A DNA stretch of 64,000 bases from Escherichia coli (GCF_044324875.1 NZ_CP172185.1), one strand, 5' to 3'. Shown: positions 35,816 to 64,000, counted from the stretch's first letter. The notes: a model not told the origin generated them from the sequence alone. Numbers and translations are program-made.

Positions 35816-36690
35816 TGGCGGAAGTGACACAGTTGAAGCGTTATGACGCGCGCCCGATTAACTGGGGCAAATGGTTTCTGATTGGCATCGGGATGCTGGT
35901 TTCGGCGTTCATCCTGCTGGTGCCGATGATTTACATCTTCGTGCAGGCGTTCAGCAAAGGGCTGATGCCAGTTTTACAGAATCTGGCCGATCCAGACATG
36001 CTGCACGCCATCTGGCTGACGGTGATGATTGCGCTGATTGCCGTACCGGTGAACCTGGTGTTCGGCATTCTGCTGGCCTGGCTGGTGACGCGCTTTAACT
36101 TCCCCGGACGCCAGTTGCTGCTGACGCTGCTGGACATTCCGTTTGCCGTGTCGCCGGTGGTTGCCGGTCTGGTGTATTTGCTATTTTACGGCTCTAACGG
36201 CCCGCTCGGTGGCTGGCTGGATGAACATAATCTGCAAATTATGTTCTCCTGGCCGGGAATGGTGCTGGTCACCATCTTCGTGACGTGTCCGTTTGTGGTG
36301 CGTGAGCTGGTGCCGGTGATGTTAAGCCAGGGCAGCCAGGAAGACGAAGCGGCAATTTTGCTTGGCGCGTCTGGCTGGCAGATGTTTCGCCGCGTCACGC
36401 TGCCGAACATCCGCTGGGCGCTGCTTTATGGCGTGGTGCTGACCAACGCCCGCGCGATTGGCGAGTTTGGTGCGGTGTCGGTGGTTTCCGGCTCGATTCG
36501 CGGCGAAACACTTTCGCTGCCGTTACAGATTGAATTGCTGGAGCAGGACTACAACACCGTCGGCTCCTTTACCGCCGCTGCGCTGTTGACGCTGATGGCG
36601 ATTATCACCCTGTTTTTAAAGAGTATGTTGCAGTGGCGTCTGGAGAATCAGGAAAAACGCGCGCAGCAGGAGGAACATCATGAGCATTGA
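35815..36690 (+). CDS. cysW: sulfate/thiosulfate ABC transporter permease
   Basis: 291 aa membrane protein; start overlaps the cysU stop. Confidence 0.95.
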
Positions 36691-37777
36691 GATTGCCAAT
36701 ATTAAGAAGTCTTTTGGTCGCACCCAGGTGCTGAACGATATCTCACTGGATATTCCTTCTGGTCAGATGGTCGCATTGCTGGGGCCGTCCGGTTCCGGGA
36801 AAACCACGCTGCTGCGCATTATCGCCGGGCTGGAGCATCAAACCAGCGGGCATATTCGCTTCCACGGCACCGACGTCAGCCGCCTGCATGCGCGCGATCG
36901 TAAAGTTGGTTTCGTGTTCCAGCACTATGCGCTGTTCCGCCATATGACGGTGTTCGACAATATCGCTTTCGGCCTGACGGTGCTGCCGCGTCGCGAGCGC
37001 CCGAATGCCGCAGCCATCAAAGCGAAAGTGACAAAATTGCTGGAGATGGTGCAGCTTGCGCATCTGGCGGATCGTTATCCGGCACAGCTTTCCGGCGGGC
37101 AGAAACAGCGCGTGGCGCTGGCGCGTGCGCTCGCTGTGGAACCGCAAATTCTGCTGCTTGATGAACCGTTTGGCGCGCTGGATGCGCAGGTGCGTAAAGA
37201 GCTGCGTCGCTGGCTGCGTCAGTTACATGAAGAGCTGAAATTCACCAGCGTGTTTGTGACCCATGACCAGGAAGAAGCGACCGAAGTAGCCGATCGTGTA
37301 GTGGTGATGAGCCAGGGCAATATCGAGCAGGCTGATGCACCGGACCAGGTATGGCGCGAACCAGCGACCCGTTTTGTACTCGAATTTATGGGCGAAGTGA
37401 ACCGCCTGCAGGGAACCATTCGCGGCGGGCAGTTCCATGTTGGCGCACATCGCTGGCCGCTGGGCTATACACCTGCGTATCAGGGGCCGGTGGATCTCTT
37501 CCTTCGTCCGTGGGAAGTGGATATCAGCCGCCGTACCAGCCTCGATTCGCCGCTGCCGGTACAGGTACTGGAAGCCAGCCCGAAAGGCCACTACACCCAA
37601 TTAGTTGTGCAGCCGCTGGGGTGGTACAACGAACCGCTGACGGTTGTGATGCATGGCGACGATGCCCCGCAGCGTGGCGAGCGTTTATTCGTTGGTCTGC
37701 AACATGCGCGGCTGTATAACGGCGACGAGCGTATTGAAACCCGCGATGAGGAACTTGCTCTCGCACAAAGCGCCTGA
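36680..37777 (+). CDS. cysA: sulfate/thiosulfate ABC transporter ATP-binding protein
   Basis: 365 aa; Walker [10 protein letters not shown] and ABC signature LSGGQ. Confidence 0.95.
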
Positions 37778-37851
37778 TAGGTTGAGTGAATGTTAAACGC
37801 CCGGAGGCGCTTCCCGCGATCCGGGCTTTTTAATGGCAAGGTTTGTAACCT

Positions 37852-37887
37852 GTAGGCCTGATAAGACGCGCAAGCGTCGCATCAGGC
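37852..37887. repeat. REP (repetitive extragenic palindromic) element
   Basis: gtaggcctgataagacgcgcaagcgtcgcatcaggc matches the classic REP palindrome. Confidence 0.8.
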
Positions 37888-37910
37888 AACACCACGTATG
37901 GACAGAGATC

Positions 37911-38822
37911 GTGAGTACATTAGAACAAACAATTGGCAATACGCCTCTGGTGAAGTTGCAGCGAATGGGGCCGAATAACGGCAGTGAAGTCTGGTTGAAA
38001 CTGGAAGGCAATAACCCGGCAGGTTCGGTAAAAGATCGTGCGGCACTTTCGATGATCGTCGAGGCGGAAAAGCGCGGGGAAATTAAACCGGGTGACGTGC
38101 TGATCGAAGCCACCAGTGGTAACACCGGCATTGCGCTGGCAATGATTGCCGCGCTTAAAGGCTATCGCATGAAATTGCTGATGCCCGACAACATGAGCCA
38201 GGAACGTCGTGCGGCGATGCTGGCATACGGTGCGGAACTGATTCTTGTCACCAAAGAGCAGGGCATGGAAGGTGCGCGCGATCTGGCGCTGGAGATGGCG
38301 AATCGTGGTGAAGGAAAGCTGCTCGATCAGTTCAATAATCCCGATAACCCTTACGCCCATTACACCACCACCGGGCCGGAAATCTGGCAGCAAACCGGCG
38401 GGCGCATTACCCATTTTGTCTCCAGCATGGGAACAACCGGCACTATCACCGGCGTTTCACGCTTTATGCGCGAGCAATCCAAACCGGTGACGATTGTCGG
38501 CTTACAGCCGGAAGAGGGCAGTAGCATTCCCGGCATTCGCCGCTGGCCTGCGGAATATCTGCCGGGGATTTTCAACGCTTCGCTGGTGGATGAGGTGCTG
38601 GATATTCATCAGCGAGAAGCGGAAAACACCATGCGCGAACTGGCAGTGCGGGAAGGAATATTCTGTGGCGTCAGCTCCGGCGGCGCGGTTGCTGGAGCAC
38701 TGCGGGTGGCAAAAGCTAACCCTGGTGCGGTGGTGGTAGCGATCATCTGCGATCGTGGCGATCGCTACCTTTCCACCGGGGTGTTTGGGGAAGAGCATTT
38801 TAGTCAGGGGGCGGGGATTTAA
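37911..38822 (+). CDS. cysM: cysteine synthase B
   Basis: Protein from (V)STLEQTIGNTPLVKLQRMGP recognised as CysM (303 aa); GTG start at 37911. Confidence 0.93.
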   Translation: MSTLEQTIGNTPLVKLQRMGPNNGSEVWLKLEGNNPAGSVKDRAALSMIVEAEKRGEIKPGDVLIEATSGNTGIALAMIAALKGYRMKLLMPDNMSQERRAAMLAYGAELILVTKEQGMEGARDLALEMANRGEGKLLDQFNNPDNPYAHYTTTGPEIWQQTGGRITHFVSSMGTTGTITGVSRFMREQSKPVTIVGLQPEEGSSIPGIRRWPAEYLPGIFNASLVDEVLDIHQREAENTMRELAVREGIFCGVSSGGAVAGALRVAKANPGAVVVAIICDRGDRYLSTGVFGEEHFSQGAGI

Positions 38823-55018: not shown

Positions 55019-55078
55019 ATCGCAGATAGCAAAAAAGCGCCTTTAGGGCGCTTTTTTACATTGGTGGGTCGTGCAGGA
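55019..55078 (-). repeat. duplicated copy of the lysV terminator plus the last 17 nt of tRNA-Lys (tRNA 3' fragment)
   Basis: 60 bp identical to 55175..55234; contains tggtgggtcgtgcagga, the complement of the tRNA-Lys 3' end. Confidence 0.75.
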
Positions 55079-55184
55079 TGACTCGCTTCGCTCGCCCTTC
55101 GGGCCGTCGCCGCGAGCGGCTCCGTTGTTTCGCTGCGCTCAACTCGAACCTGCTGCAGGTTCGAATCTTTGAGTATCGCAGATA

Positions 55185-55213
55185 GCAAAAAAGCGCCTTT
55201 AGGGCGCTTTTTT
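55185..55213 (-). terminator. rho-independent terminator of the valU-valX-valY-lysV tRNA operon
   Basis: aaaaaagcgcc-ttta-gggcgctttttt hairpin immediately 3' of lysV. Confidence 0.75.
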
Positions 55214-55217
55214 ACAT

Positions 55218-55293
55218 TGGTGGGTCGTGCAGGATTCGAACCTGCGACCAATTGATTAAAAGTCAACTGCTCTACCAACTGAGCTAACGACCC
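55218..55293 (-). tRNA. lysV: tRNA-Lys (anticodon UUU)
   Basis: 76 nt; reverse complement reads gggtcgttagctcagttggtagagcagttgacttttaatcaattggtcgcaggttcgaatcctgcacgacccacca. Confidence 0.95.
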
Positions 55294-55297
55294 GAAG

Positions 55298-55373
55298 TGG
55301 TGGGTGATGACGGGATCGAACCGCCGACCCCCTCCTTGTAAGGGAGGTGCTCTCCCAGCTGAGCTAATCACCC
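55298..55373 (-). tRNA. valY: tRNA-Val (anticodon UAC)
   Basis: 76 nt; reverse complement reads gggtgattagctcagctgggagagcacctcccttacaaggagggggtcggcggttcgatcccgtcatcacccacca. Confidence 0.95.
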
Positions 55374-55419
55374 ACTTCGGTACTTCACATTTTTACAAGA
55401 AATTTAGCTGGCGAGAAAG

Positions 55420-55495
55420 TGGTGGGTGATGACGGGATCGAACCGCCGACCCCCTCCTTGTAAGGGAGGTGCTCTCCCAGCTGAGCTAATCACCC
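55420..55495 (-). tRNA. valX: tRNA-Val (anticodon UAC)
   Basis: Identical 76 nt copy. Confidence 0.95.
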
Positions 55496-55538
55496 ACTTC
55501 TCAATTTCTTGCTACACGGCGGAGACTACATAAAGAAG

Positions 55539-55614
55539 TGGTGGGTGATGACGGGATCGAACCGCCGACCCCCTCCTTGTAAGGGAGGTGCTCTCCCAGC
55601 TGAGCTAATCACCC
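55539..55614 (-). tRNA. valU: tRNA-Val (anticodon UAC)
   Basis: Identical 76 nt copy; first gene of the tRNA operon. Confidence 0.95.
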
Positions 55615-58312: not shown

Positions 58313-58388
<76 letters not shown>

Positions 58389-58427
58389 AATTTTGCACCC
58401 AGCAAATTTGGTACGTAAACGCATCGT

Positions 58428-58503
<76 letters not shown>

Positions 58504-62478: not shown

Positions 62479-63726
<1,248 letters not shown>

Positions 63727-63754
63727 TTCAACTGGCGTCGTACCAGGCATCACT

Positions 63755-63845
63755 GGCGGATGCGGCGTAAAACGCCTTATCCGCCCTATGCGTTAAAGAG
63801 ACGGTTTGTAGGTCTGATAAGACGCGCTAGCGTCGCATCAGGCAT
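63755..63845. repeat. BIME-type cluster of two REP elements between mntH and ypeC
   Basis: ggcggatgcggcgtaaaacgccttatccgccctat and gtaggtctgataagacgcgctagcgtcgcatcaggc, both REP-like palindromes. Confidence 0.75.
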
Positions 63846-63867
63846 TGTGCTCCATTGACGGACGCGT

Positions 63868-64000
63868 TTAATGGCGATGCCCATGTCCGCGGCCTTTTCC
63901 GCGATGATCGTCACGATCGCGCCAGCCTTCACGATAGCCACGCTCATACGCTTTACGCTTATCCCAGCCACGATGGTAGCCATTATCATGACGCCACCAG
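63868..64000 (-). CDS. ypeC: DUF2502 protein YpeC, C-terminal part only (5' end beyond the window)
   Basis: Minus-strand frame translates to ...[43 protein letters not shown] with stop at 63868..63870; no start codon inside the window. Confidence 0.75.

What the first reader, a model, noticed from the sequence alone, without database searches (positions are those of the whole stretch)
63755..63845. REP/BIME elements at two 3' gene ends
Canonical REP palindromes occur downstream of mntH (two inverted units forming a BIME) and between cysA and cysM (37852..37887). The cysA-cysM copy sits within an operon and may shape the stability of the upstream transcript segment relative to the downstream one.
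Basis: partly seen in the sequence, partly recalled or inferred. Interest (0 to 1): 0.15.

Follow-up and report, generated by a model that had tools for sequence, protein, structure and literature searches.

The report
Ordinary REP repeats at gene ends
These are copies of the well-known short palindromic "REP" repeat that litters the spaces between E. coli genes; they are real and correctly recognised, but ordinary, and the older hairpin next to one of them is the more likely boundary signal inside the cys operon.

Summary
The window is E. coli chromosome. It holds three intact REP units. One is a z1 unit at 37852-37887, between cysA and cysM. The other two, a y unit (63755-63789) and an inverted z1 unit (63808-63843), lie between the convergent genes mntH and ypeC. 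They match REP patterns far above chance, fold at -19 to -23 kcal/mol, and belong to a family with at least 40 copies per genome.

Refinements:
- The mntH element is y + z1 with an 18-nt linker and no IHF site, so it is an "atypical" BIME, not BIME-1.
- It carries a truncated third unit (63732-63750) right after the mntH stop.
- In other strains it is polymorphic: the z1 unit is lost in at most 43 of 5426 genomes, and IS1397 sits in the z1 loop in one strain.

The stability idea is textbook REP behaviour and was not tested here. Comparison across species weakens it for cysA-cysM. The REP is an Escherichia-lineage insertion. A hairpin of that kind occurs in 48 of 56 species with cysA upstream of cysM.

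Verdict: already known, low interest.

The parts
36680..37777 (+). cysA coding sequence (stop TGA 37775-37777), the upstream gene of the first REP
   Evidence: ORF list. RefSeq annotation under 100%-identical matches. K-12 alignment.
37799..37831 (+). Terminator-like element: GC hairpin (7 bp GCCCGGA/TCCGGGC, inner 3-bp stem) at 37799-37826, then U5 at 37827-37831. Single-copy; ancestral to the REP insertion.
   Evidence: The 41-nt stretch 37795-37835 folds at -19.1 kcal/mol; the hairpin alone at -17.7. One place per genome in 5425 of 5426 genomes. Homologous hairpin and T-tract in Citrobacter and Lelliottia. A hairpin plus T-tract is present in 48 of 56 species. The simple scanner missed it because its loop limit is 8.
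37852..37887 (+). Single z1-type REP unit. On the + strand it is in 'REP' orientation (5' GTAG 37852-37855; stems 37856-37862/37881-37887 and 37865-37869/37874-37878). It is transcribed as part of any cysA-to-cysM read-through RNA.
   Evidence: 0 mismatches to both REP patterns. -23.1 kcal/mol, z = -5.85. 33/33 to the naRNA4 consensus hairpin. Rfam naRNA4 37.9 bits, E = 1.5e-5. Present at full length in all 29 sampled E. coli chromosomes. Absent from Citrobacter and Lelliottia.
37911..38822 (+). cysM coding sequence (GTG start), 23 nt downstream of the REP
   Evidence: RefSeq annotation. K-12 cysM. The GTG start aligns across genera.
62488..63726 (+). mntH coding sequence (stop TAG 63724-63726)
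   Evidence: ORF list. RefSeq annotation.
63732..63750 (+). Truncated third REP unit: the 3' half of a z1 unit, in the same orientation as the intact z1, head-to-head with the y unit
   Evidence: 16/19 identical to the intact z1, with 2 of 2000 shuffles reaching the score; the K-12 allele is 15/16. Infernal aligns it to the second hairpin of naRNA4.
63755..63789 (+). y-type REP unit. On the + strand it is in 'iREP' orientation: stem-loop 63755-63785, then foot CTAT 63786-63789 (CTAC in other strains).
   Evidence: -22.1 kcal/mol on the + strand and -23.2 on the - strand. 30/32 to the crystallised y REP. At least 40 places per genome.
63790..63807 (.). 18-nt tail-to-tail linker GCGTTAAAGAGACGGTTT between the y and z1 units. 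It has no IHF consensus.
   Evidence: No WATCARNNNNTTR match with up to 2 mismatches in the linker, and none with up to 1 mismatch in the whole spacer. Conserved across strains.
63808..63843 (+). z1-type REP unit, in 'REP' orientation on the + strand (GTAG 63808-63811), inverted relative to the y unit
   Evidence: -19.2 kcal/mol. 31/33 to the naRNA4 consensus. naRNA4 49.2 bits. IS1397 is inserted in its loop in strain A20. The unit is deleted in a rare allele.
63868..64000 (-). 3' part of ypeC (stop codon 63868-63870 on the - strand), convergent with mntH; runs off the window
   Evidence: RefSeq annotation. Sequence.

Best explanation
Both loci hold ordinary members of the E. coli REP (palindromic unit) repeat family.

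How they got there (inferred from published TnpA_REP biochemistry and from the polymorphisms seen here): they are non-autonomous repeats that spread and rearrange in intergenic DNA, probably through the REP-associated tyrosine transposase TnpA_REP (RAYT). They persist where they do no harm, typically just past stop codons.

What they do: when transcribed, each unit folds into a stable hairpin. The hairpin acts passively as a barrier to 3'-to-5' exonucleases.

At mntH/ypeC: neither convergent gene has an intrinsic terminator. mntH transcription runs through the BIME and is stopped by Rho further on, inside antisense ypeC. The REP hairpins are then the likely stable 3' end left after trimming.

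At cysA-cysM: the REP is a late insertion between an older terminator-like hairpin with U-tract and the cysM ribosome-binding site. The older hairpin is the primary candidate for uncoupling cysPUWA from cysM. The REP would only protect the minority of read-through RNAs after cleavage in cysM.

What is shown: the identity of the units, their structure, copy number, lineage distribution and polymorphism.

What is inferred: the exonuclease-barrier role and the TnpA_REP origin.
For: Family membership:
- Pattern matches are far above chance.
- Near-identity to reference y and z1 sequences.
- Sub-threshold but significant hits to the only REP-derived Rfam family, naRNA4 (E = 5e-8, 4e-6, 1.5e-5).
- At least 40 copies per genome, against 1 copy for the neighbouring hairpin.

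Structure:
- -19 to -23 kcal/mol, z = -4 to -6.
- Across 7 alleles 98.9% of pair cells stay paired. All three one-sided changes give G-U pairs on the mntH-sense strand.

Mobile or unstable character:
- The REP is inserted in Escherichia only.
- Pseudocitrobacter faecalis has a different y + z1 BIME at the same point.
- Enterobacter and related genera carry pairs of a different REP class there.
- At most 43 of 5426 E. coli genomes lack linker + z1, with a GCGTT/GTGTT junction.
- IS1397 sits in the z1 loop with a GCTA duplication. IS1397 is a REP-specific insertion sequence (PMC1525189).

Termination:
- No intrinsic terminator was found at mntH/ypeC.
- A Rho-dependent region is listed at K-12 2511284 (-), antisense to ypeC, Rho score 3.84, p = 1e-10. 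That is about 65 nt past the BIME on the mntH strand (PMC7815308 supplementary file 2).
- The general model, Rho termination beyond a REP followed by trimming back to it, is in PMC6061677.
- cysUWA and cysM mRNA levels are uncoupled in an APEC study (PMC13393413).
Against: - No mapped steady-state 3' end at either REP locus, or at the cysA-cysM hairpin, is listed in the Term-seq tables of PMC7815308. The barrier role is therefore unobserved here. Low expression in LB or M63 may explain this but was not checked.
- The cysA-cysM REP is fixed in essentially all E. coli and in E. albertii. That is compatible with selection as well as with neutrality.
- The y unit in this strain has lost the G of GTAG, which TnpA_REP needs. 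Current mobility of that unit is doubtful.
- No TnpA_REP gene lies in the window, so the link to it could not be tested.
Confidence: 0.85

Rival explanations
1. One reading: the cysA-cysM REP is a selected intercistronic stabiliser. It protects the upstream cysPUWA segment from 3' exonucleases and so sets a high cysPUWA: low cysM ratio, as the malE-malF REPs do.
For: - Stable hairpin on the sense strand (-23.1 kcal/mol).
- Located inside the operon.
- Fixed across E. coli and E. albertii.
- cysUWA rises about ninefold while cysM does not in one transcriptome.
- REP-mediated upstream stabilisation is an established precedent (references in PMC6061677).
Against: - A conserved hairpin with U-tract lies 20 nt upstream. 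It would already end or protect cysPUWA RNA.
- Citrobacter and Lelliottia manage with that hairpin alone, in 66-68-nt spacers.
- Pseudocitrobacter has a different REP arrangement, with the z1 unit inverted, at the same site. This argues for insertion-site permissiveness rather than a specific requirement.
- No 3' end is listed there.
Confidence: 0.2
2. The elements work mainly at the DNA level. On this reading the mntH/ypeC BIME is a binding or cleavage site for DNA gyrase, IHF or HU (with naRNA-type REP transcripts). It would relieve the positive supercoiling that builds up between convergent genes, or tie REP sites together in the nucleoid.
For: - The BIME fills 112 of the 141 nt between two convergent genes.
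- BIMEs are reported to bind gyrase, IHF and Pol I (PMC2817692; PMC3333891).
- The units resemble naRNA4/REP325, which with HU connects cruciform-forming REP DNA (PMC4550694; Rfam hits).
Against: - No IHF consensus in the linker.
- Strong gyrase binding is described for BIME-2 and for multi-copy atypical BIMEs. This element has only two intact units, and they are y/z1.
- naRNA4 scores are below the Rfam gathering threshold (49.2 against 59.5).
- A natural allele lacking the z1 unit exists, and IS1397 disruption is tolerated.
Confidence: 0.1
3. The palindromes are locus-specific terminator hairpins, or chance inverted repeats, rather than members of a repeat family.
For: They sit where terminators are expected, and they fold stably.
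Against: - No U-tract follows any of the three units.
- The sequences are near-identical to each other and to reference REPs.
- They occur at least 40 times per genome.
- Shuffles do not reproduce the matches.
Confidence: 0.01

Closest known systems
E. coli REP / palindromic units of types y and z1 (Stern 1984; Gilson/Bachellier; Ton-Hoang 2012, PMC3333891)
   Same: - Length of 35-36 nt.
- An imperfect palindrome with a conserved 2-nt internal mismatch.
- GTAG/CTAC at the foot.
- Extragenic position just past stop codons.
- High copy number.
- Near-identity to reference sequences.
   Different: Nothing essential. The y unit of this strain carries a compensated change in the outer stem (GGCGGAT/ATCCGCC in place of GCCGGAT/ATCCGGC). 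Its foot is CTAT in place of CTAC.
BIME-1 (also called RIP/RIB): y + z1 separated by the long L linker that binds IHF
   Same: The composition is y + z1 in inverted orientation, joined tail to tail.
   Different: - The linker is 18 nt with no IHF consensus, not the conserved long L.
- A truncated third unit is attached.
By the definitions in PMC3333891 it therefore falls in the 'atypical BIME' class.
BIME-2 (y + z2 tandem arrays, short S linker, gyrase binding)
   Same: A short tail-to-tail linker. There are traces of an array: 2.5 units, and possibly a decayed fourth.
   Different: The second unit is the long z1 form, with a 12-nt centre between GCCTGATGCG and CTTATCAGGC, not the shorter z2. 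The z1/z2 assignment rests on my recollection of the published consensus. Only two units are intact.
malE-malF and other intercistronic REPs that stabilise the upstream mRNA (Newbury et al. 1987, cited in PMC6061677)
   Same: A REP hairpin inside a polycistronic unit, downstream of the more strongly needed genes.
   Different: Here a separate hairpin with U-tract precedes the REP, and the REP is missing in related genera. No stability data exist for this locus.
naRNA4 / REP325 (Rfam RF02564; Qian et al. 2015, PMC4550694)
   Same: The model is itself a y unit, a linker and a z1 unit. All three units here align to it.
   Different: Scores are below the gathering threshold. REP325 is a six-repeat cluster elsewhere on the chromosome. 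No evidence was found for HU binding or for a discrete RNA from these loci.

Membership tests
REP (palindromic unit) family of E. coli | Imperfect palindrome of 30-40 nt that folds as stem / mismatch / stem | tested here: met
   All three units fold as 7-8 bp, a 1-2-nt internal loop, 5 bp and a 3-4-nt loop, at -19.2 to -23.1 kcal/mol.
REP (palindromic unit) family of E. coli | Conserved GTAG tetranucleotide 5' of the foot (CTAC on the other strand) | tested here: met
   GTAG at 37852-37855 and at 63808-63811. The y unit has CTAT in this strain (one base off) and CTAC in K-12 and five other alleles.
REP (palindromic unit) family of E. coli | Sequence match to the y / z1 / z2 consensus | tested here: met
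   0, 1 and 2 mismatches to the tail pattern. 33/33 and 31/33 (z1) and 30/32 (y) to reference sequences.
REP (palindromic unit) family of E. coli | High copy number, dispersed in the genome | tested here: met
   At least 40 places per genome for the y unit, with the cap reached in 5378 records. A median of 6 exact-word places per genome for the z1 query. The neighbouring hairpin, as a control, has 1 place per genome.
REP (palindromic unit) family of E. coli | Extragenic location | tested here: met
   All units lie between annotated coding sequences. The first full unit starts 28 nt after the mntH stop, and the cysA-cysM REP starts 74 nt after the cysA stop.
REP (palindromic unit) family of E. 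coli | Bound and cleaved by TnpA_REP (RAYT) | not testable with these tools
   This is a biochemical property (PMC3333891, PMC3479197). No tnpA_REP gene lies in the window.
BIME-1 (RIP/RIB) | y and z1 in inverted orientation, as a single copy | tested here: met
   y at 63755-63789 and z1 at 63808-63843, tail to tail. A truncated extra unit is also present.
BIME-1 (RIP/RIB) | Long conserved L linker, frequently carrying an IHF site | tested here: not met
   The linker is 18 nt. No WATCARNNNNTTR match with up to 2 mismatches in the linker, and none with up to 1 mismatch in the whole spacer. The definition is from PMC3333891.
BIME-2 | y + z2 units in multiple tandem copies with the S linker | tested here: not met
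   The non-y units have the long z1 centre. Only two units are intact, plus one truncated unit.
Atypical BIME | A chimera of BIME-1 and BIME-2 parts (y, z1, z2 with short or long linkers) | tested here: met
   y + z1 with a short linker and a further partial unit. It is assigned by the PMC3333891 definitions. PMC3333891 also describes this class as occurring in multiple copies, and that part is met only weakly here: two intact units, one truncated unit and perhaps a decayed fourth. The class is defined loosely, so this row carries little weight.
naRNA4 (Rfam RF02564) | Score at or above the curated gathering threshold (59.5 bits) | tested here: not met
   49.2, 40.6 and 37.9 bits. No hit at gathering level.
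Intrinsic (Rho-independent) terminator, for 37799-37831 | GC-rich hairpin immediately followed by a U-tract | tested here: met
   7 GC-rich pairs plus an inner stem, -17.7 to -19.1 kcal/mol, then UUUUUAAU. The arrangement is conserved in 48 of 56 species.
Intrinsic (Rho-independent) terminator, for 37799-37831 | An RNA 3' end at the U-tract in vivo | tested here: inconclusive
   No 3' end at K-12 25395xx-25396xx in the tables of PMC7815308. Other data sets were not held.
REP-dependent translation down-regulation (Liang, Rudd & Deutscher 2015; recalled, not read here) | REP hairpin within about 15 nt of the stop codon | tested here: not met
   The first intact hairpin starts 28 nt after the mntH stop, and the GTAG foot of the cysA-cysM REP lies 74 nt after the cysA stop. 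Only the truncated half unit starts close to a stop codon, 5 nt after the mntH stop.

The most novel reading that the evidence does not exclude
The most novel reading not excluded concerns the cysA-cysM spacer, which may be a conserved, tunable intra-operon attenuator built from REP-class palindromes.

What was seen:
- The hairpin plus U-tract before cysM is present across Enterobacterales.
- In Enterobacter, Pseudescherichia, Pluralibacter and related genera, the palindrome abutting the T-tract has the sequence of those genera's own REP class.
- The few nucleotides between the T-tract and the cysM start have been occupied repeatedly by different REP or BIME arrangements in different lineages.

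The reading: if these insertions change read-through or the stability of read-through RNA, then REP turnover would be a way of retuning the CysPUWA : CysM ratio between lineages.
Probability: 0.12. Interest if true: 0.3.

Novelty: already known. Interest (0 to 1): 0.07.

Why it matters
It matters little. REPs and BIMEs of E. coli have been catalogued since the 1980s and 1990s. These two loci are present in K-12 in nearly the same form.

Three things are of practical use:
- Annotation. The spacers should carry repeat features. The mechanical ORF that extends cysM upstream through the REP should be ignored.
- A caution. The element most likely to matter for cysPUWA versus cysM expression is the conserved hairpin with U-tract, not the REP.
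- An illustration of REP dynamics at two sites: insertion, inversion, loss of a unit, and IS1397 targeting.

Tried and rejected
- Rfam at gathering thresholds found nothing at either locus. Only at relaxed thresholds did the REP-derived family naRNA4 appear, below its cut-off.
- The simple terminator and promoter scanner found no terminator or promoter in either spacer. It missed the 37799-37831 hairpin because of its loop limit. No cysM-specific sigma-70 promoter was seen.
- The K-12 RefSeq record lists no repeat features at these positions, so annotation could not be used as confirmation.
- I looked for mapped 3' ends or per-gene data in PMC6061677, PMC9023263, PMC12207403 and PMC11092163. 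Supplements were not held, or the genes were not mentioned. Sirko et al. 1990, Gilson et al. 1991 and Thomason et al. 2015 are not held.
- The covariation test on 7 orthologous alleles was uninformative. 20 of 25 pairs never vary and no pair changes on both sides.
- A fourth decayed unit (y-type) over the ypeC stop codon was suggested by the Infernal alignment. It is not significant by sequence alone: 170 of 3000 shuffles reach the score. It is left as a possibility only.
- IHF-site hypothesis for the linker: rejected.
- REP-within-15-nt-of-stop translation effect: the distance criterion is not met.

Full report
**Identity of the window.** Both loci match E. coli chromosomes at 100% identity. 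The annotated genes under the matches are cysA/cysM and mntH/ypeC. The window runs opposite to K-12 coordinates. At the cys locus, window position x corresponds to NC_000913.3 position 2577494 - x. The coding sequences are cysA 36680-37777, cysM 37911-38822 (GTG start) and mntH 62488-63726. ypeC is on the minus strand, with its stop codon at 63868-63870, and runs off the window. mntH and ypeC are therefore convergent.

- The REP tail pattern CTTATCMGGCCTAC (up to 2 mismatches) hits 37852-37865(-), 63776-63789(+) and 63808-63821(-), plus one stray site. Expectation is 0.39, and 0 of 100 shuffles reach 4 hits.
- A head-to-tail z-type pattern hits only 37856-37887 and 63812-63843, against 0.05 expected.
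- A looser scan of all 64 kb adds no further convincing unit.
- Each unit alone folds as stem / small internal loop / stem at -19.2 to -23.1 kcal/mol, z = -4.1 to -5.9.
- The y unit is 30/32 identical to the y REP crystallised with TnpA_REP (sequence in PMC3479197). The two other units are 33/33 and 31/33 identical to the second hairpin of the Rfam naRNA4 consensus.
- The y unit has at least 40 matching places per genome, with the reporting cap reached in 5378 records.
- As a control, the non-REP hairpin next to the cysA-cysM REP has exactly one place per genome.

**Anatomy of the mntH-ypeC element.** The 141-nt gap (63727-63867) contains, in order:
- a truncated z1 half at 63732-63750 (16/19 identical to the intact z1; 2 of 2000 shuffles reach the score; 15/16 in K-12);
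- 4 nt;
- the y unit (stem-loop 63755-63785, foot CTAT 63786-63789);
- an 18-nt linker (63790-63807);
- the inverted z1 unit (GTAG 63808-63811, stem-loop 63812-63843).

PMC3333891 defines the classes as follows. BIME-1 is y + z1 with a long, conserved L linker that often binds IHF. BIME-2 is y + z2 in tandem copies with short linkers. Atypical BIMEs are chimeras of the two. Here the linker is short and has no IHF consensus. The element is therefore an atypical BIME, not BIME-1. The Infernal alignment hints at a fourth, decayed unit overlapping the ypeC stop, but sequence alone does not support it.

**Variation of the mntH-ypeC element among E. coli.**
- The region is present at full length in most genomes, but this strain's allele is uncommon. 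Only 153 records are at least 99% identical over 601 nt, and most are 90-95%.
- The differences sit mainly in the unique flanks. The REP units are nearly invariant.
- Pairing is kept in 98.9% of cells. The three one-sided changes all give G-U pairs on the mntH-sense strand. There are too few changes to test covariation.
- A rare allele, in at most 43 of 5426 genomes, lacks the linker, the z1 unit and the following 20-odd nt. Its junction lies at a GCGTT/GTGTT repeat.
- In strain A20, an IS1397 sits in the loop of the z1 unit with a GCTA duplication. IS1397 is known to insert specifically into E. coli REPs (PMC1525189).
- Both variants are what one expects of a real BIME.

**Anatomy and history of the cysA-cysM spacer.** After the cysA stop come:
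- 21 nt;
- a GC hairpin at 37799-37826 (-17.7 to -19.1 kcal/mol);
- U5 at 37827-37831;
- 20 nt;
- the z1 REP at 37852-37887;
- 23 nt;
- the cysM GTG.

I fetched cysM loci from 80 species. In 56 of them cysA lies directly upstream.
- In 48 of those 56, the spacer holds a hairpin of -8 kcal/mol or stronger, directly followed by at least 4 T. This includes all 28 Enterobacteriaceae loci (L009-L037 and L058, cysA 72% identical or more).
- In Citrobacter werkmanii, C. youngae, Citrobacter sp. FP75 and Lelliottia the spacer is only 66-68 nt. It holds a hairpin homologous to the E. coli one, T5-6, and 13-14 nt to the GTG.
- E. coli and E. albertii carry a roughly 66-nt insertion containing the z1 REP.
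- Pseudocitrobacter faecalis has the same flanks but a y unit, TGTGT, and a z1 unit in the opposite orientation.
- Enterobacter, Pseudescherichia, Pluralibacter and others carry inverted pairs of a different palindrome class. The second arm of the pair abuts the T-tract.

The hairpin with T-tract is therefore the conserved feature. The REP is a lineage-specific occupant of a permissive site. Within E. coli the REP is fixed: all 29 sampled chromosomes have it at full length.

**Mechanism.**

*mntH/ypeC.*
- No intrinsic terminator is detectable on either strand.
- PMC7815308 (supplementary file 2) lists a Rho-dependent region at K-12 2511284 on the mntH strand, antisense to ypeC. Rho score 3.84, p = 1e-10. 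That maps to about window 63911, some 65 nt beyond the BIME.
- This fits the published picture in which Rho acts downstream of REPs and exonucleases trim back to the hairpin (PMC6061677).
- The trimmed end itself is not in the curated 3'-end tables. That step is inferred.

*cysA-cysM.*
- In the species without the insertion, the T-tract ends 13-14 nt before the start codon. There is no room there for a cysM promoter, so cysM must be read through the hairpin.
- The hairpin is then most simply an attenuator, or a 3' stabiliser, for cysPUWA.
- An APEC study reports cysUWA up about ninefold with cysM unchanged (PMC13393413). This is consistent with uncoupling at this junction, but cysP was also unchanged, so the data are not clean.
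- The REP may add a second exonuclease barrier on read-through RNA. Nothing shows that it does.

**Comparison with known systems and verdict.**
- Every defining feature of the REP family that could be tested was met.
- BIME-1, BIME-2 and naRNA4 membership each fail on a tested feature.
- The recalled rule that REPs within about 15 nt of a stop codon depress translation does not apply, because the distances are 28 and 74 nt.

The finding is a correct recognition of ordinary, long-catalogued repeats. Its functional suggestion is generic, untested, and for cysA-cysM probably aimed at the wrong hairpin. Novelty: already known. Interest: low.

Noticed in passing
window 37799-37831; loci L009-L088 upstream of position 1201: A GC hairpin followed by a T-tract sits between cysA and cysM in 48 of 56 species with cysA directly upstream of cysM. 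In most Enterobacteriaceae the T-tract ends 13-26 nt before the cysM start. In E. coli the hairpin is single-copy and at least 99% conserved in 4758 records. It looks like a conserved terminator or attenuator inside the operon.
   Followed up: partly
L010, L018-L020, L022, L023, L026, L058 (cysA-cysM spacers of Enterobacter, Pseudescherichia, Pluralibacter and others); L011 (Pseudocitrobacter faecalis): The same spacer is occupied by different REP arrangements in different genera. Some carry inverted pairs of a GCCGGGTGGCGC...TTACCCGGCCTAC-type palindrome, with the second unit abutting the T-tract. P. faecalis carries a y + z1 BIME whose z1 unit is inverted relative to E. coli, between identical flanks. 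The site appears to be a REP insertion hot spot.
   Followed up: partly
window 63680-63900 and E. coli genome hits H91-H150: The 3' end of mntH, the spacer and the 3' end of ypeC in this strain form an uncommon, strongly divergent allele. Only 252 records are at least 99% identical over 221 nt, and 3926 are only 80-90% identical. The differences lie mostly in the unique flanks, while the REP units stay nearly invariant.
   Followed up: partly
L089 (strain 23CRST013) 248-314; window 63790-63865: A rare allele, in at most 43 of 5426 genomes, lacks the linker, the z1 unit and about 20 nt beyond it (74 nt in all). Only the y unit is left, in a 67-nt spacer. The junction falls at a 5-nt repeat, GCGTT in the long allele and GTGTT in the short one.
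   Followed up: yes
L091 (strain A20) 385-1820, corresponding to window about 63826-63829: An IS1397 (IS3 family) is inserted in the loop of the z1 unit of the mntH-ypeC BIME, flanked by a GCTA duplication.
   Followed up: yes
window 37833-38822 (+): The mechanical ORF list gives a 329-aa ORF starting at ATG 37833. It reads in frame through the REP into cysM. The real start is GTG 37911, as annotated and as aligned in species that lack the REP. The longer ORF is a trap for automatic start-codon calling.
   Followed up: partly
window 63706-63715 with 63735-63744: In this strain's allele, the truncated REP half pairs 9/10 with the last codons of mntH (GGTACGGCGC / GCGTCGTACC). This gives a hairpin whose loop holds the mntH stop codon. 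K-12 pairs less well. Infernal aligns this hairpin to the second hairpin of naRNA4.
   Followed up: no
window 55062-55187 (-), next to tRNAs at 55221-55614 (-) and 58313-58500 (+): An RtT RNA match (RF00391, 51.6 bits against a gathering score of 45) lies directly downstream of a four-tRNA cluster. Two further tRNA genes lie about 3 kb away on the other strand.
   Followed up: no
K-12 NC_000913.3 2539642 region (L003), window 37856-37857: K-12 carries GTAGACC where this strain has GTAGGCC at the foot of the cysA-cysM REP. This weakens the lowest base pair of the hairpin in K-12.
   Followed up: no
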